DNA from: a virus
Taxonomy: Duplodnaviria; Heunggongvirae; Uroviricota; Caudoviricetes
Length of the DNA: 5,245 bases
Strand: one strand, 5' to 3'
IMG/VR virus record: IMGVR_UViG_2698536677_000001
Positions 1-5,245 of the stretch are shown piece after piece; the first letter of the stretch is position 1; every line of letters starts with the position of its first letter. The notes beneath the pieces were generated by a model, which did no database searches, had not been told where the DNA came from, and worked only from the letters and a program-made list of their open reading frames with translations. The position numbers were made by a program, and so were the translations under genes.

Positions 1-86
1 CGGCAAACCGGGTACGCGATCTGTTGCCCTGGAAAGTTGATCTGAGCTCTCAGTAAATATCAATACGGTTCTGACGAGTCGCTTAC

Positions 87-707
87 AAAGTTAAAGACCT
101 GACGCCCGGCGAACTGACCGCTGAGTCCTATGACGACAGCTATCTCGATGATGAAGATGCAGACTGGACTGCGACCGGGCAGGGGCAGAAATCTGCCGGA
201 GATACCAGCTTCACGCTGGCGTGGATGCCCGGAGAGCAGGGGCAGCAGGCGCTGCTGGCGTGGTTTAATGAAGGCGATACCCGTGCCTATAAAATCCGCT
301 TCCCGAACGGCACGGTCGATGTGTTCCGTGGCTGGGTCAGCAGTATCGGTAAGGCGGTGACGGCGAAGGAAGTGATCACCCGCACGGTGAAAGTCACCAA
401 TGTGGGACGTCCGTCGATGGCAGAAGATCGCAGCACGGTGACGGCGACAACCGGCATGACGGTGACACCCGCCAGTGCTTCCGTAGTGAAAGGGCAGAGC
501 ACCACGCTGACCGTGGCATTCCAGCCGGAGGGCGCAACCGACAAGAGCTTCCGTGCGGTGTCTGCGGATAAAACAAAAGCCACCGTGTCGGTCAGTGGTA
601 TGACCATCACCGTGAAAGGTGTTGCTGCAGGCAAGGTCAACATTCCGGTCGTATCCGGTAATGGTGAGTTTGCTGCGGTTGCAGAAATCAACGTCACCGC
701 CAGTTAA
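87..707 (+). CDS. V: Major tail (tube) protein V, C-terminal ~207 codons; 5' part missing or disrupted in this window
   Basis: Frame-3 translation from 93 reads [49 protein letters not shown]..., matching lambda gpV, and ends ...[10 protein letters not shown] with TAA at 705-707. The 225..707 ORF in the track is the same frame. Upstream of ~87 the frame has stops at 54-56 and 72-74 and no in-frame ATG/GTG/TTG before 225, so no intact start is present. Confidence 0.85.
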
Positions 708-710
708 TCC

Positions 711-716
711 GGAGAG
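711..716 (+). promoter_or_regulatory. Shine-Dalgarno (GGAGAG) for G
   Basis: GGAGAG lies 6 nt upstream of the G ATG at 723. Confidence 0.6.
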
Positions 717-722
717 TCAGCG

Positions 723-1145
723 ATGTTCCTGAAAACCGAATCATTTGAACATAACGGTGTGACCGTCACGCTTTCTGAACTGTCAGCCCTGCAGCGTATT
801 GAGCATCTCGCCCTGATGAAACGGCAGGCAGAACAGGCGGAGTCAGACAGCAACCGGAAGTTTACTGTGGAAGACGCCATCAGAACCGGCGCGTTTCTGG
901 TGGCGATGTCCCTGTGGCATAACCATCCGCAGAAGACGCAGATGCCGTCCATGAATGAAGCCGTTAAACAGATTGAGCAGGAAGTGCTTACCACCTGGCC
1001 CACGGAGGCAATTTCTCATGCTGAAAACGTGGTGTACCGGCTGTCTGGTATGTATGAGTTTGTGGTGAATAATGCCCCTGAACAGACAGAGGACGCCGGG
1101 CCCGCAGAGCCTGTTTCTGCGGGAAAGTGTTCGACGGTGAGCTGA
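723..1145 (+). CDS. G: Tail assembly chaperone G
   Basis: 140-aa ORF MFLKTESFEHNGVTVTLSELSALQRIEHLALMKRQAEQ...SAGKCSTVS, recognised as lambda gpG; directly follows V and has a good SD. Confidence 0.93.
   Translation: MFLKTESFEHNGVTVTLSELSALQRIEHLALMKRQAEQAESDSNRKFTVEDAIRTGAFLVAMSLWHNHPQKTQMPSMNEAVKQIEQEVLTTWPTEAISHAENVVYRLSGMYEFVVNNAPEQTEDAGPAEPVSAGKCSTVS
1121..1127 (+). promoter_or_regulatory. Slippery heptamer G_GGA_AAG for the programmed -1 frameshift that fuses G to T
   Basis: GGGAAAG sits 6 codons before the G stop, read as G GGA AAG in the G frame. A -1 slip continues in the T frame (GTG TTC GAC ... = VFDGELSFALK) to the stop at 1559-1561. Confidence 0.85.
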
Positions 1146-1561
1146 GTTTTGCCCTGAAACTGGCGCGTGAGATGGGGCGACCCGACTGGCGTGCCATGCT
1201 TGCCGGGATGTCATCCACGGAGTATGCCGACTGGCACCGCTTTTACAGTACCCATTATTTTCATGATGTTCTGCTGGATATGCACTTTTCCGGGCTGACG
1301 TACACCGTGCTCAGCCTGTTTTTCAGCGATCCGGATATGCATCCGCTGGATTTCAGTCTGCTTAACCGGCGCGAGGCTGACGAAGAGCCTGAAGATGATG
1401 TGCTGATGCAGAAAGCGGCAGGGCTTGCCGGAGGTGTCCGCTTTGGCCCGGACGGGAATGAAGTTATCCCTACTTCCCCGGATGTGGCGGACATGACGGA
1501 GGATGACGTAATGCTGATGACAGTATCAGAAGGGATCGCAGGAGGAGTCCGGTATGGCTGA
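1127..1561 (+). CDS. T: Tail assembly protein T, expressed only as the G-T fusion (723..1561 with -1 shift at 1121-1127)
   Basis: Open frame 1127..1561 in the -1 frame relative to G, translating FDGELSFALKLAREMGRPDWRAMLAGMSSTEYADWHRFY..., recognised as lambda gpT. It has no independent ATG or SD, consistent with frameshift-dependent expression. Confidence 0.88.
   Translation: MFDGELSFALKLAREMGRPDWRAMLAGMSSTEYADWHRFYSTHYFHDVLLDMHFSGLTYTVLSLFFSDPDMHPLDFSLLNRREADEEPEDDVLMQKAAGLAGGVRFGPDGNEVIPTSPDVADMTEDDVMLMTVSEGIAGGVRYG
1540..1546 (+). promoter_or_regulatory. Shine-Dalgarno (AGGAGGA) for H
   Basis: AGGAGGA lies 7 nt upstream of the H ATG at 1554, inside the 3' end of T. Confidence 0.65.
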
Positions 1562-4115
1562 ACCGGTAGGCGATCTGGTCGTTGATTTGAGTCTGGATGC
1601 GGCCAGATTTGACGAGCAGATGGCCAGAGTCAGGCGTCATTTTTCCGGTACGGAAAGTGATGCGAAAAAAACAGCGGCAGTCGTTGAACAGTCGATGAAC
1701 CGGCAGGCGCTGGCTGCACAGAAAGCGGGAATTTCCGTCGGGCAGTATAAAGCCGCCATGCGTATGCTGCCTGCGCAGTTCACTGACGTGGCCACGCAGC
1801 TTGCAGGCGGGCAAAGTCCGTGGCTGATCCTGCTGCAACAGGGGGGGCAGGTGAAGGACTCCTTCGGCGGGATGATCCCCATGTTCCGGGGGCTTGCCGG
1901 TGCGATCACCCTGCCGATGGTGGGGGCCACCTCGCTGGCGGTGGCGACCGGTGCGCTGGCGTATGCCTGGTATCAGGGCAACTCAACCCTGTCCGATTTC
2001 AACAAAACGCTGGTCCTTTCCGGCAATCAGGCCGGGCTGACGGCAGATCGTATGCTGGTCCTGTCCAGAGCCGGGCAGGCGGCAGGGCTGACGTTTAACC
2101 AGACCAGCGAGTCACTCAGCGCACTGGTTAAGGCGGGGGTAAGCGGTGAGGCTCAGATTGCGTCCATCAGCCAGAGTGTGGCGCGTTTCTCCTCTGCATC
2201 CGGCGTGGAGGTGGACAAGGTCGCTGAAGCCTTCGGGAAGCTGACCACTGACCCGACGTCGGGGCTGACAGCGATGGCGCGCCAGTTCCATAACGTGACG
2301 GCGGAGCAGATTGCGTATGTTGCTCAGTTGCAGCGTTCCGGCGAAGAAGCCGGGGCATTGCAGGCGGCGAACGAGGCCGCGACGAAAGGGTTTGATGACC
2401 AGACCCGCCGCCTGAAAGAGAACATGGGCACGCTGGAAACCTGGGCAGACAGGACAGCACGGGCATTCAAATCCATGTGGGATGCGGTGCTGGATATTGG
2501 TCGTCCTGATACCGCGCAGGAGATGCTGATTAAGGCAGAGGCCGCGTTTAAGAAAGCGGACGATATCTGGAATCTGCGCAAGGATGATTATTTTGTTAAC
2601 GATGAAGCGCGGGCGCGTTACTGGGATGATCGTGAAAAGGCCCGTCTTGCGCTTGAAGCCGCCCGAAAGAAGGCTGAGCAGCAGAGTCAACAGGACAAAA
2701 ATGCGCAGCAGCAGAGCGATACCGAAGCGTCACGGCTGAAATATACCGAAGAGGCGCAGAAGGCTTACGAACGGCTGCAGACGCCGCTGGAGAAATATAC
2801 CGCCCGTCAGGAAGAACTGAACAAGGCACTGAAAGACGGGAAAATCCTGCAGGCGGATTACAACACGCTGATGGCGGCGGCGAAAAAGGATTATGAAGCG
2901 ACGCTGAAAAAGCCGAAACAGTCCGGCGTGAAGGTGTCTGCGGGCGATCGTCAGGAAGACAGTGCTCATGCTGCCCTGCTGACGCTTCAGGCAGAACTCC
3001 GGACGCTGGAGAAGCATGCCGGAGCGAATGAGAAAATCAGCCAGCAGCGCCGGGATTTGTGGAAGGCGGAGAGTCAGTTCGCGGTACTGGAGGAGGCGGC
3101 GCAACGTCGCCAGCTGTCTGCACAGGAGAAATCCCTGCTGGCGCATAAAGATGAGACGCTGGAGTACAAACGCCAGCTGGCTGCACTTGGCGACAAGGTT
3201 ACGTATCAGGAGCGCCTGAACGCGCTGGCGCAGCAGGCGGATAAATTCGCACAGCAGCAACGGGCAAAATGGGCCGCCATTGATGCGAAAAGCCGGGGGC
3301 TGACTGACCGGCAGGCAGAACGGGAAGCCACGGAACAGCGCCTGAAGGAACAGTATGGCGATAATCCGCTGGCGCTGAATAACGTCATGTCAGAGCAGAA
3401 AAAGACCTGGGCGGCTGAAGACCAGCTTCGCGGGAGCTGGATGGCAGGCCTGAAGTCCGGCTGGAGTGAGTGGGAAGAGAGCGCCACGGACAGTATGTCG
3501 CAGGTTAAAAGTGCAGCCACGCAGACCTTTGATGGTATTGCACAAAATATGGCGGCGATGCTGACCGGCAGTGAGCAGAACTGGCGCAGCTTCACCCGTT
3601 CCGTGCTGTCCATGATGACAGAAATTCTGCTTAAGCAGGCAATGGTGGGGATTGTCGGGAGTATCGGCAGCGCCATTGGCGGTGCTGCCAGTGGTGGAGC
3701 ATCCGCGTCAGGCGGTACAGCCATTCAGGCCGCTGCGGCGAAATTCCATTTTGCAACCGGAGGATTTACGGGAACCGGCGGCAAATATGAGCCAGCGGGG
3801 ATTGTTCACCGTGGTGAGTTTGTCTTCACGAAGGAGGCAACCAGCCGGATTGGCGTGGGGAATCTTTACCGGCTGATGCGCGGCTATGCCACCGGCGGTT
3901 ATGTCGGTACACCGGGCAGCATGGCAGACAGCCGGTCGCAGGCGTCCGGGACGTTTGAGCAGAATAACCATGTGGTGATTAACAACGACGGCACGAACGG
4001 GCAGATAGGTCCGGCTGCTCTGAAGGCGGTGTATGACATGGCCCGCAAGGGTGCCCGTGATGAAATTCAGACACAGATGCGTGATGGTGGCCTGTTCTCC
4101 GGAGGTGGACGATGA
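1554..4115 (+). CDS. H: Tail tape measure protein H
   Basis: 853-aa ORF MAEPVGDLVVDLSLDAARFDEQMARVRRHF...MRDGGLFSGGGR. Length and sequence are recognised as lambda gpH, with a central Ala/Gln/Glu/Lys-rich region and a Gly-rich C-terminal region. It overlaps the T stop by 8 nt. Confidence 0.96.
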   Translation: MAEPVGDLVVDLSLDAARFDEQMARVRRHFSGTESDAKKTAAVVEQSMNRQALAAQKAGISVGQYKAAMRMLPAQFTDVATQLAGGQSPWLILLQQGGQVKDSFGGMIPMFRGLAGAITLPMVGATSLAVATGALAYAWYQGNSTLSDFNKTLVLSGNQAGLTADRMLVLSRAGQAAGLTFNQTSESLSALVKAGVSGEAQIASISQSVARFSSASGVEVDKVAEAFGKLTTDPTSGLTAMARQFHNVTAEQIAYVAQLQRSGEEAGALQAANEAATKGFDDQTRRLKENMGTLETWADRTARAFKSMWDAVLDIGRPDTAQEMLIKAEAAFKKADDIWNLRKDDYFVNDEARARYWDDREKARLALEAARKKAEQQSQQDKNAQQQSDTEASRLKYTEEAQKAYERLQTPLEKYTARQEELNKALKDGKILQADYNTLMAAAKKDYEATLKKPKQSGVKVSAGDRQEDSAHAALLTLQAELRTLEKHAGANEKISQQRRDLWKAESQFAVLEEAAQRRQLSAQEKSLLAHKDETLEYKRQLAALGDKVTYQERLNALAQQADKFAQQQRAKWAAIDAKSRGLTDRQAEREATEQRLKEQYGDNPLALNNVMSEQKKTWAAEDQLRGSWMAGLKSGWSEWEESATDSMSQVKSAATQTFDGIAQNMAAMLTGSEQNWRSFTRSVLSMMTEILLKQAMVGIVGSIGSAIGGAASGGASASGGTAIQAAAAKFHFATGGFTGTGGKYEPAGIVHRGEFVFTKEATSRIGVGNLYRLMRGYATGGYVGTPGSMADSRSQASGTFEQNNHVVINNDGTNGQIGPAALKAVYDMARKGARDEIQTQMRDGGLFSGGGR
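4101..4105 (+). promoter_or_regulatory. Shine-Dalgarno (GGAGG) for M
   Basis: GGAGGTGG ends immediately upstream of the M ATG at 4112. Confidence 0.6.
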
Positions 4116-4441
4116 AGACCTTCCGCTGGAAAGTGAAACCCGGTATGGATGTGGCTTCGGTCCCTTCTGTAAGAAAGGTGCGCTTTGGTGATGGCTATTC
4201 TCAGCGAGCGCCTGCCGGGCTGAATGCCAACCTGAAAACGTACAGCGTGACGCTTTCTGTCCCCCGTGAGGAGGCCACGGTACTGGAGTCGTTTCTGGAA
4301 GAGCACGGGGGCTGGAAATCCTTTCTGTGGACGCCGCCTTATGAGTGGCGGCAGATAAAGGTGACCTGCGCAAAATGGTCGTCGCGGGTCAGTATGTTGC
4401 GTGTTGAGTTCAGCGCAGAGTTTGAACAGGTGGTGAACTGA
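4112..4441 (+). CDS. M: Tail tip/initiator complex protein M
   Basis: 109-aa ORF MKTFRWKVKPGMDVASVPSVRKVRFGDGYSQRAPAGL..., recognised as lambda gpM. Its ATG overlaps the H stop (ATGA). Confidence 0.94.
   Translation: MKTFRWKVKPGMDVASVPSVRKVRFGDGYSQRAPAGLNANLKTYSVTLSVPREEATVLESFLEEHGGWKSFLWTPPYEWRQIKVTCAKWSSRVSMLRVEFSAEFEQVVN
4428..4433 (+). promoter_or_regulatory. Shine-Dalgarno-like AGGTGG for L
   Basis: AGGTGG lies 7 nt upstream of the L ATG at 4441. Confidence 0.5.
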
Positions 4442-5139
4442 TGCAGGATATCCGGCAGGAAACACTGAATGAATGCACCCGTGCGGAGCAGTCGGCCAGC
4501 GTGGTGCTCTGGGAAATCGACCTGACAGAGGTCGGTGGAGAACGTTATTTTTTCTGTAATGAGCAGAACGAAAAAGGTGAGCCGGTCACCTGGCAGGGGC
4601 GACAGTATCAGCCGTATCCCATTCAGGGGAGCGGTTTTGAACTGAATGGCAAAGGCACCAGTACGCGCCCCACGCTGACGGTTTCTAACCTGTACGGTAT
4701 GGTCACCGGGATGGCGGAAGATATGCAGAGTCTGGTCGGCGGAACGGTGGTCCGGCGTAAGGTTTACGCCCGTTTTCTGGATGCGGTGAACTTCGTCAAC
4801 GGAAACAGTTATGCCGATCCGGAGCAGGAGGTGATCAGCCGCTGGCGCATTGAGCAGTGCAGCGAACTGAGCGCGGTGAGTGCCTCCTTTGTACTGTCCA
4901 CGCCGACGGAAACGGATGGCGCTGTTTTTCCGGGACGTATCATGCTGGCCAACACCTGCACCTGGACCTATCGCGGTGACGAGTGCGGTTATAGCGGTCC
5001 GGCTGTCGCGGATGAATATGACCAGCCAACGTCCGATATCACGAAGGATAAATGCAGCAAATGCCTGAGCGGTTGTAAGTTCCGCAATAACGTCGGCAAC
5101 TTTGGCGGCTTCCTTTCCATTAACAAACTTTCGCAGTAA
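4441..5139 (+). CDS. L: Tail tip protein L
   Basis: 232-aa ORF MQDIRQETLNECTRAEQSASVVLWEIDLTEVGGERYFF...FLSINKLSQ, recognised as lambda gpL. Its start overlaps the M stop (TGATG), and it has a C-terminal cysteine cluster. Confidence 0.94.
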   Translation: MQDIRQETLNECTRAEQSASVVLWEIDLTEVGGERYFFCNEQNEKGEPVTWQGRQYQPYPIQGSGFELNGKGTSTRPTLTVSNLYGMVTGMAEDMQSLVGGTVVRRKVYARFLDAVNFVNGNSYADPEQEVISRWRIEQCSELSAVSASFVLSTPTETDGAVFPGRIMLANTCTWTYRGDECGYSGPAVADEYDQPTSDITKDKCSKCLSGCKFRNNVGNFGGFLSINKLSQ

Positions 5140-5144
5140 ATCCC

Positions 5145-5245
5145 ATGACACAGACAGAATCAGCGATTCTGGCGCACGCCCGGCGATGTGCGCCAGCGGA
5201 GTCGTGCGGCTTCGTGGTAAGCACGCCGGAGGGGGAAAGATATTT
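5145..5245 (+). CDS. K: Tail tip assembly protein K, N-terminal 33 codons (runs off the 3' end of the window)
   Basis: ATG at 5145, 6 nt after the L stop; frame-3 translation MTQTESAILAHARRCAPAESCGFVVSTPEGERY matches the N-terminus of lambda gpK as I recall it. No clear SD upstream. Not in the ORF track because there is no stop inside the window. Confidence 0.8.
   Translation, partial: MTQTESAILAHARRCAPAESCGFVVSTPEGERY

What the first reader, a model, noticed from the sequence alone, without database searches (positions are those of the whole stretch)
1115..1150. Programmed -1 ribosomal frameshift joining G to T
The heptamer GGGAAAG at 1121-1127 fits the X_XXY_YYZ slippery pattern in the G frame, 6 codons before the G stop at 1143-1145. 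The -1 frame is open from 1127 to 1561 and has no start codon or SD of its own. In lambda this shift makes the gpGT fusion at a low fixed ratio to gpG, and both act as tail assembly chaperones on the tape measure. I see no obvious strong stem-loop immediately downstream.
Basis: partly seen in the sequence, partly recalled or inferred. Interest (0 to 1): 0.45.

Follow-up and report, generated by a model that had tools for sequence, protein, structure and literature searches.

The report
Phage lambda G/GT tail-chaperone frameshift site
This is the textbook programmed -1 ribosomal frameshift of phage lambda, which makes a small amount of a G-T fusion protein needed to build the phage tail; here it sits unchanged in a lambda-like prophage, so it is real but already well known.

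Summary
GGGAAAG lies at 1121-1127 in X_XXY_YYZ phase of gene G (723-1145). Five sense codons separate it from the TGA at 1143-1145, and a -1 frame runs on to 1561.

Window 87-5245 is 98.8% identical to phage lambda 9075-14233. The G/T overlap is identical to lambda for more than 150 nt on each side of the heptamer. This is therefore the experimentally characterised lambda G/GT frameshift site (about 4% shifting, roughly 30:1 gpG:gpGT), between tail tube gene V and tape-measure gene H.

In 69 homologous loci, with G identity down to 28% and T identity down to 36%, the homologous position always keeps an in-phase N_NNA_AAR shift site followed by a 110-150-codon -1 extension.

There is no conserved downstream RNA structure. 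A lambda-lineage-specific three-way fold is predicted to start 7 nt downstream, and its role is untested.

The -1 frame opens at 1082. GTG 1127 is the start that databases use for "T", but it has no usable Shine-Dalgarno.

Context: the tail tube gene V is truncated here by an IS66-family insertion, so this prophage is probably tail-defective.

Novelty: already known. Interest: low.

The parts
723..1145 (+). Gene G: tail assembly chaperone gpG (140 aa), the zero-frame product
   Evidence: ORF. PF06894 E=9e-62. TIGR01674 equivalog E=1.5e-65. 100% protein identity to lambda G.
1121..1127 (+). Slippery heptamer G_GGA_AAG, the site of the -1 tandem tRNA slip (tRNA-Gly in the P site, tRNA-Lys in the A site)
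   Evidence: Phase verified. Identical to the lambda site. Named as the lambda G/GT site in PMC3296357 Table 1 and PMC7618472. The homologous position is conserved in 69 of 69 loci analysed as N_NNA_AAR.
1143..1145 (+). TGA stop of G, bypassed by ribosomes that have shifted
1127..1561 (+). T segment: -1 frame extension (144 codons plus TGA 1559-1561), translated only as the C-terminal part of the 279-aa gpGT fusion. Databases annotate it as a separate CDS 'T'.
   Evidence: PF06223 E=2e-14. TIGR01715 E=1.9e-56. Annotated as T in NC_001416 and as 'tail assembly protein GT' in HK630. No usable SD.
1135..1205 (+). Predicted lambda-lineage RNA fold: helix A (1135-1142 with 1198-1205) enclosing hairpins 1145-1161 and 1162-1195. 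A possible weak stimulator, not established.
   Evidence: MFE (helix A mean pair probability 0.59 in the window, 0.87-0.98 in its closest relatives). z about -2. Not conserved family-wide.
87..707 (+). Gene V (tail tube protein), codons 41-246 only. It is the binding partner of the T domain and is truncated at its 5' end by an IS.
   Evidence: Window 87 corresponds to lambda 9075, which is V codon 41.
1554..4115 (+). Gene H: tape measure protein (853 aa), the substrate that gpG and the G part of gpGT coat
   Evidence: PF06791 and PF09718. TIGR01541. Annotation.

Best explanation
This is the lambda-type G/GT programmed -1 ribosomal frameshift.

Mechanism:
- Ribosomes translating G reach G_GGA_AAG (1121-1127) with tRNA-Gly on GGA in the P site and tRNA-Lys(mnm5s2UUU) on AAG in the A site.
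- In a few per cent of passages both tRNAs re-pair one base back, on GGG and AAA.
- Decoding then resumes at GTG 1127. The ribosome misses the G stop at 1143-1145 and adds 144 residues, producing the 279-aa gpGT.
- Unshifted ribosomes terminate and give the 140-aa gpG.

Function:
- Many gpG molecules and few gpGT molecules coat the tape measure protein gpH.
- The T domain recruits the tail tube protein gpV.
- Both chaperones leave the finished tail.

What is shown here: sequence identity with the lambda site, phase, ORF architecture, protein families, synteny and deep conservation of the slip site.

What is taken from the literature on the identical lambda sequence and not tested here: the slip itself, its roughly 4% frequency and the chaperone roles.

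The signal appears to rest mainly on the heptamer, because no conserved stimulatory RNA structure or upstream SD-like element was found. In this particular genome the tube gene V is cut by an IS66-family element, so the signal is intact but the tail module is probably not functional.
For: - Window 87-5245 is 98.8% identical to lambda 9075-14233.
- Window 700-1600 differs from lambda at 4 of 901 nt, none within 150 nt of the heptamer.
- Phase, stop and -1 ORF are verified.
- G matches PF06894/TIGR01674, T matches PF06223/TIGR01715, and H is a tape measure.
- The order V-G-T-H-M-L is as in NC_001416. HK630 labels the same interval 'tail assembly protein GT'.
- There is no SD for GTG 1127.
- Conservation: in 13 phage loci and 58 species-level prophage loci the homologous position is always in phase and reads GGGAAAG, AAAAAAG, GGAAAAG, AGAAAAG, GGTAAAG, GGCAAAA or GGGAAAA. 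It lies 1-5 codons before the G stop and is followed by a 110-150-codon -1 frame. AAA is invariant in 57 of 57 distinct segments.
- Literature: the lambda slippery sequence is GGGAAAG and the zero frame is kept about 96% of the time (PMC3296357). [quoted passage not shown] G_GGA_AAG is among the three most shift-prone heptamers in E. coli (PMC4066793; PMC6924986).
Against: - Nothing contradicts the identification.
- Caveat 1: no expression or protein data exist for this particular locus.
- Caveat 2: V is truncated by an IS insertion at window 86/87, so selection on the signal may have lapsed in this host.
- Caveat 3: the bare motif gives only 0.277% shifting in a stimulator-free reporter, against 3.8% with moderate stimulators (PMC4066793 Table S3). 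Lambda G-T gives about 4%, so 'heptamer alone' may be an incomplete account.
Confidence: 0.97

Rival explanations
1. The signal is an intact relic. The prophage is defective because tail tube gene V is truncated by an IS66-family element, so the frameshift site is no longer used or under selection in this genome. This is compatible with the best explanation for what the element is. It differs only on whether the element still works for tail assembly here.
For: - Window 1-86 is 86/86 identical to the right end of ISCro1.
- The lambda match starts at 87, which is V codon 41.
- The V frame has a stop 4 codons upstream, inside the IS, and its first in-frame start is ATG 225.
Against: - G, T, H, M and L are full-length and 98.8% identical to lambda with no frameshifts or stops, so any decay is recent.
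- The V 5' part may lie beyond the IS, outside the window.
- V could be supplied by another prophage. E. coli genomes carry a median of 2 matching places.
Confidence: 0.3
2. T is an independent gene translated from GTG 1127, as RefSeq lambda and many records annotate it, and no frameshift is needed.
For: - A GTG sits at 1127.
- NC_001416 lists T as CDS 10115-10549, and PGAP calls 'phage tail assembly protein T' at the same place.
Against: - There is no usable Shine-Dalgarno: -4.3 kcal/mol at 1-nt spacing, which is background level.
- In relatives the codon at that position is GTC, GCC, GCA, GTA or ATA rather than a start, yet the -1 frame and the GK junction are conserved.
- The literature describes T sequence only as part of gpGT (PMC5009743, PMC3296357).
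Confidence: 0.02
3. The fusion arises from transcriptional slippage by RNA polymerase on the A run, not from ribosomal slippage.
For: Some relatives have a longer run (AAAAAAG in VT1-Sakai-type phages), where polymerase slippage is more conceivable.
Against: - Here the run is only three A's.
- Polymerase slippage needs long homopolymer runs (general knowledge; PMC5009743 treats lambda GT as ribosomal).
- Frameshift frequency responds to tRNA-Lys modification (PMC3296357), which is a translational property.
Confidence: 0.01
4. The heptamer is a chance occurrence with no recoding role.
For: GGGAAAG occurs twice in the window against 0.87 expected. 24% of codon-shuffled G genes carry some in-phase XXXYYYZ.
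Against: - Correct phase, position in the last 7 codons (3.7% by chance) and a 144-codon open -1 frame encoding a recognised protein family.
- Invariant AAA at the homologous site in 57 distinct relatives.
- Identity with the experimentally proven lambda site.
Confidence: 0.005

Closest known systems
Bacteriophage lambda G/GT programmed -1 frameshift (Levin, Hendrix & Casjens 1993; Xu, Hendrix & Duda 2004, 2013, 2014)
   Same: Everything testable is the same: identical heptamer, identical flanks for more than 150 nt, the same phase, the same distance to the G stop, the same V-G-T-H gene order, and G and T proteins with 100% and 99% identity.
   Different: Only context differs. There are four substitutions elsewhere in G/T, including one amino-acid change (A to T) in the T tail. 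The neighbouring V gene is truncated by an ISCro1 insertion.
G/T-like tail chaperone frameshifts of other lambdoid and N15/HK97/phi80/Gifsy-type siphophages
   Same: The same architecture and a homologous slip position. The -1 extension carries the conserved motif EL.F...LARE.(G/R)R.DWR.ML.
   Different: Most of them use G_GAA_AAG (55 of 69 loci), which has been described as less slippery than G_GGA_AAG (PMC6924986). T is shorter, at 113-121 aa against 144.
Stimulated bacterial -1 frameshifts: dnaX, and IS911/IS3 orfAB
   Same: The same class of heptamer (X_XXA_AAG) and the same tRNA-Lys-dependent slip (PMC4066793).
   Different: Those sites depend on an upstream SD-like element and/or a downstream hairpin, three-way junction or pseudoknot, and they reach 4-50%. 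Here no SD-like element lies 5' of the site and no conserved 3' structure is found.

Membership tests
Lambda-type tail assembly chaperone G/GT -1 frameshift | Two overlapping ORFs lying between the major tail (tube) gene and the tape measure gene | tested here: met
   V (87-707), G (723-1145), T frame (to 1561) and H (1554-4115).
Lambda-type tail assembly chaperone G/GT -1 frameshift | [quoted passage not shown] | tested here: met
   G_GGA_AAG at 1121-1127, five sense codons before the stop.
Lambda-type tail assembly chaperone G/GT -1 frameshift | Downstream ORF in the -1 frame, long, and without its own ribosome binding site | tested here: met
   144-codon extension. The anti-SD duplex is -4.3 kcal/mol at 1-nt spacing, which is background level.
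Lambda-type tail assembly chaperone G/GT -1 frameshift | Proteins belong to the gpG and gpT families | tested here: met
   PF06894 and PF06223. TIGR01674 and TIGR01715 equivalogs, well above their cut-offs.
Lambda-type tail assembly chaperone G/GT -1 frameshift | Slip site conserved at the homologous position while the protein sequences diverge | tested here: met
   69 loci with G identity down to 28% and T identity down to 36%. AAA is invariant and the site is in phase in all loci with intact genes.
Lambda-type tail assembly chaperone G/GT -1 frameshift | A fusion protein is actually made at a few per cent of the short product | not testable with these tools
   Known for the identical lambda sequence (PMC3296357, PMC5009743). 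No protein data exist for this locus.
Lambda-type tail assembly chaperone G/GT -1 frameshift | Both products are required for tail assembly and absent from virions | not testable with these tools
   Literature only (PMC5009743). In this genome V is truncated.
Stimulator-dependent -1 PRF (dnaX / IS3-family type) | Conserved RNA structure starting 5-9 nt 3' of the heptamer | tested here: inconclusive
   - The lambda-type sequences are predicted to form a three-way fold starting 7 nt downstream.
- On 57 distinct relatives the consensus fold is empty (-1.5 kcal/mol), and the robust covariation measures are at chance.
- The adjacent 81 nt is more stable than protein-preserving recodings (mean z -1.2 to -1.6) and than the control windows.
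Stimulator-dependent -1 PRF (dnaX / IS3-family type) | SD-like element about 10-14 nt 5' of the heptamer | tested here: not met
   Window 1101-1120 (CCCGCAGAGCCTGTTTCTGC) has no GGAG or GAGG. The best anti-SD pairing in the 20 nt before 1127 is the GGGA of the heptamer itself.
Transcriptional slippage | Long homopolymer run at the shift site | tested here: not met
   Only three A's at 1124-1126.

The most novel reading that the evidence does not exclude
The lambda G-T shift may not be stimulator-free. The GC-rich, stably folding roughly 80 nt that begins 7 nt after the heptamer would act as a moderate stimulator that raises shifting from about 0.3% (bare G_GGA_AAG in a reporter) to the about 4% seen in lambda. 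In lambda-type phages this stretch is predicted as a three-way fold, with helix 1135-1142/1198-1205 enclosing two hairpins. Different lineages would achieve the same effect with different folds and no single conserved architecture.
Probability: 0.2. Interest if true: 0.3.

Novelty: already known. Interest (0 to 1): 0.08.

Why it matters
The element itself is a classic: it sets the gpG:gpGT ratio that lambda needs to assemble tails of the correct length. Finding it here adds nothing new beyond correct annotation. The 'T' CDS in many records should be joined to G as a frameshifted GT product.

Two minor points have some practical value:
1. The surrounding prophage has its tube gene cut by an IS, which is useful for judging prophage viability.
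2. Published reporter values for the bare heptamer (0.28%) fall well below lambda's roughly 4%. The region just downstream is unusually stable in most relatives, so the common statement that this site needs no stimulator deserves a direct test.

Tried and rejected
- Rfam scan of the whole window at E<=1 gave only a spurious miRNA hit in H and nothing at the site.
- The simple downstream hairpin in 1128-1200: the only strong one (1162-1195) starts 34 nt downstream, too far for a canonical stimulator.
- Covariation on 10 relatives looked positive on lenient measures. It disappeared on 57 distinct sequences: 381/500 and 294/500 shuffles reached the observed values, and the alifold consensus was -1.5 kcal/mol. 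Helix A alone gave the same result and is predicted at P>0.5 in only 13 of 57.
- The first recoding null (pooled codon usage) was judged biased by GC differences. It was replaced by own-locus codon usage and by exact codon-permutation nulls with control windows. The signal shrank to modest (z -1.18, against -0.92 for the best control window).
- The upstream 9-bp hairpin 1101-1123 overlaps the GGG of the heptamer. It is broken without compensation in PhiR11 and Turner and absent in Stx2a-type phages, so it was rejected as a conserved element.
- The viral-contig scan returned only copies about 99% identical to lambda, which were no use for covariation. The genome-contig scan supplied the diversity.
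- Xu et al. 2013 (PMC3762263) is not held, so it could not be read. Levin et al. 1993 is not in the library, so its deletion and mutagenesis details are not cited.
- Search for the exact IS/V junction in complete E. coli genomes: none has it in one piece.

Full report
OBSERVATION. The window was read in full and its ORFs listed. GGGAAAG lies at 1121-1127. Gene G runs from ATG 723 to TGA 1143-1145 (140 aa). Position 1122 is a first codon position, so the heptamer is phased G_GGA_AAG. Five sense codons follow AAG before the stop. After a -1 slip the next codon is GTG 1127-1129, and the frame stays open for 144 codons to TGA 1559-1561. This predicts a 279-aa fusion with the junction ...PVSAGK/VFDGEL.... 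Two details of the finding need correction. The -1 frame is open from 1082, not 1127. Position 1127 is itself a GTG, the codon from which RefSeq lambda annotates a separate 'T' CDS.

IS IT MORE THAN CHANCE? The heptamer string alone is not. It occurs twice in the window against 0.87 expected, and 42 of 200 shuffles reach that count. The second copy (5233-5239) lies in K in the wrong phase. About 24% of codon-shuffled G genes carry some in-phase XXXYYYZ, but only 3.7% carry one in the last 20 codons. Significance comes from the combination of phase, position, a long open -1 frame that encodes a known protein family, and conservation.

IDENTITY. Window 87-5245 matches phage lambda 9075-14233 at 98.8% identity, along with dozens of lambda derivatives. 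Across 901 nt spanning G and T there are four substitutions relative to lambda, none within 150 nt of the heptamer. G hits PF06894 (E=9e-62) and the TIGR01674 equivalog. The -1 extension hits PF06223 and the TIGR01715 equivalog. The next gene is a tape measure protein (PF06791, PF09718, TIGR01541). The gene order V-G-T-H-M-L is that of NC_001416. HK630 labels the same interval 'tail assembly protein GT'. This is therefore not merely a relative of the lambda site. At the sequence level it is the lambda site.

INDEPENDENT INITIATION OF T? The 20 nt upstream of GTG 1127 pair with the anti-SD at only -4.3 kcal/mol and with 1-nt spacing. That value is reached or beaten at 39% of positions in the window. 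The true starts of G, H, M and L give -6.6 to -10.8 kcal/mol at 4-7 nt. In relatives the codon at this position is not a start codon (GTC, GCC, GCA, GTA, ATA), yet the -1 frame is conserved.

CONSERVATION. Twelve annotated phage loci were fetched, with G identity from 86% down to 28%. One scan of species-representative genomes added 58 usable prophage loci from many Enterobacterales genera, with T identity from 78% down to 36%. In every locus with intact genes the homologous position carries an in-phase shift-prone motif: GGAAAAG 55, GGGAAAG 4, AGAAAAG 3, GGTAAAG 3, GGCAAAA 2, AAAAAAG 1, GGGAAAA 1. The motif lies 1-5 codons before the G stop and is followed by a 110-150-codon -1 frame beginning GK(V/A).. 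and carrying EL.F...LARE.(G/R)R.DWR.ML. In 57 distinct 87-nt segments the AAA of the motif is invariant and the following base is G in 54, while neighbouring columns have 1-1.8 bits of entropy. One Shigella flexneri copy is broken (L142).

MECHANISM. The mechanism comes from the literature on the identical sequence. Lambda's G/GT slippery sequence is GGGAAAG, and the zero frame is kept about 96% of the time. The single tRNA-Lys(mnm5s2UUU) reads both AAG and AAA, and loss of its 2-thiolation raises shifting and lowers phage yield (PMC3296357; PMC7618472). gpG and gpGT are needed at about 30:1. Both bind the tape measure through the G part, the T domain binds the tube protein gpV, and neither is in the virion. 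[quoted passage not shown] G_GG.A_AA.G is one of the three most efficient heptamers in E. coli (PMC4066793) and works almost as well as A_AAA_AAG, whereas G_GAA_AAG is less slippery (PMC6924986). None of this was tested on this locus.

STIMULATORY ELEMENTS.
- No Rfam family matches the site.
- No SD-like element lies 5' of the heptamer.
- Folding 1128-1200 gives -28.3 kcal/mol (z=-2.15), mostly from a hairpin at 1162-1195 that starts 34 nt downstream.
- Folding 1090-1260 adds an 8-bp helix, 1135-1142 with 1198-1205, that closes two hairpins and starts 7 nt after the heptamer, which is canonical spacing. With the ribosome placed on the site, this helix has mean pair probability 0.59 in the window and 0.87-0.98 in its closest relatives.
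- On 10 relatives a consensus fold looked weakly supported. On 57 distinct sequences the RNAalifold consensus is essentially empty (-1.5 kcal/mol). The lambda structure is paired in 68.7% of cells against 65% after shuffling. The two measures that are robust to relatedness sit at chance (381/500 and 294/500). Helix A alone behaves the same way and is predicted in only 13 of 57.
- Protein-preserving recoding tests give a modest residual signal. The 81 nt after the site has mean z -1.64 (own-locus codon usage) or -1.18 (exact codon permutation), against +0.1 to -0.9 in five control windows. Its mean MFE is -31.5 kcal/mol against -18 to -23, and its GC content is 0.61 against 0.48-0.56.
- Conclusion: there is no conserved stimulatory architecture. 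A stable GC-rich stretch follows the site in most relatives, partly because of the amino acids it encodes.
- One loose end remains. In a stimulator-free reporter G_GGA_AAG shifts at 0.277%, and it reaches 3.8% only with moderate stimulators (PMC4066793 Table S3). The same study marks a predicted structure for the AAAAAAG tail-chaperone prophage cluster (Table S4). Lambda's roughly 4% is thus about 14-fold above the bare motif. I could not read Levin et al. 1993 to see what flanking sequence they tested.

CONTEXT. Window 1-86 is 86/86 identical to the right end of an IS66-family ISCro1 element, with the tnpC stop at 54-56 and the element ending at 86. It abuts V at codon 41, so the tube gene lacks its first 40 codons at this junction. 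The V frame meets a stop four codons into the IS, and the first in-frame ATG is at 225. No complete E. coli genome has this junction as one piece. G, T, H, M and L are intact. The frameshift signal is therefore intact, but the module is probably defective unless V is provided elsewhere.

VERDICT. The only idea with any novelty is that the lambda site may have an unrecognised, non-conserved downstream stimulator. I put that at about 0.2 probability and modest interest.

Noticed in passing
window 1-86 (junction at 86/87): This is the right end of an IS66-family ISCro1 element (tnpC stop TAA at 54-56), joined to lambda V at codon 41. The tail tube gene therefore lacks its first 40 codons. No complete E. 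coli genome shares this exact junction, although ISCro1 sits at other offsets near U/V in several genomes.
   Followed up: partly
L097-L111, L124, L130, L153: Lambda G/T DNA at 98-99% identity occurs on short or low-coverage contigs in assemblies of unrelated taxa (Neobacillus, Oceanobacillus, Kitasatospora, Shewanella, Pseudomonas, Leeuwenhoekiella, Chromatium, Tardiphaga, Paenibacillus, Enterococcus and others). This is most likely lambda DNA contamination of those assemblies.
   Followed up: no
window 5233-5239: A second GGGAAAG lies inside the 5' part of K (ATG 5145). It is phased XX_XYY_YZ, so it is not a -1 slip site.
   Followed up: yes
window 1841-1847 and 4548-4554: Two other in-phase heptamers. 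G_GGG_GGG in H has an 83-codon -1 extension, but the motif is essentially non-shifty (0.03% in PMC4066793 Table S3). T_TTT_TTC in L has only a 1-codon -1 extension.
   Followed up: partly
window 5145 onward: K appears to start at ATG 5145 (lambda 14133), directly after L, as PGAP calls it in E. coli genomes (C40 family peptidase). RefSeq lambda annotates a shorter K starting at 14276.
   Followed up: no
window 1101-1123: A 9-bp hairpin (CCCGCAGAG/UUCUGCGGG) has a 3' arm that includes the GGG of the slippery heptamer. It is broken without compensation in the close relatives PhiR11 and Turner, so it is probably incidental.
   Followed up: yes
L142 (Shigella flexneri CP182557.1) 1144-1230: In this lambda-like copy the T-type frame is open for only about 29 codons and the G-type frame is interrupted, so the G/T region is pseudogenised.
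   Followed up: no
A4 alignment (69 loci): Most relatives (55 of 69) use G_GAA_AAG, reported as less slippery than lambda's G_GGA_AAG. If output ratios are similar across lineages, something else must compensate. This was not examined.
   Followed up: no
PMC3296357 main text versus Table 1: The body text of that paper prints the lambda slippery sequence as GGGTTTG (GGT-TTG / GGG-TTT), while its Table 1 gives GGGAAAG. The table matches the sequence.
   Followed up: yes
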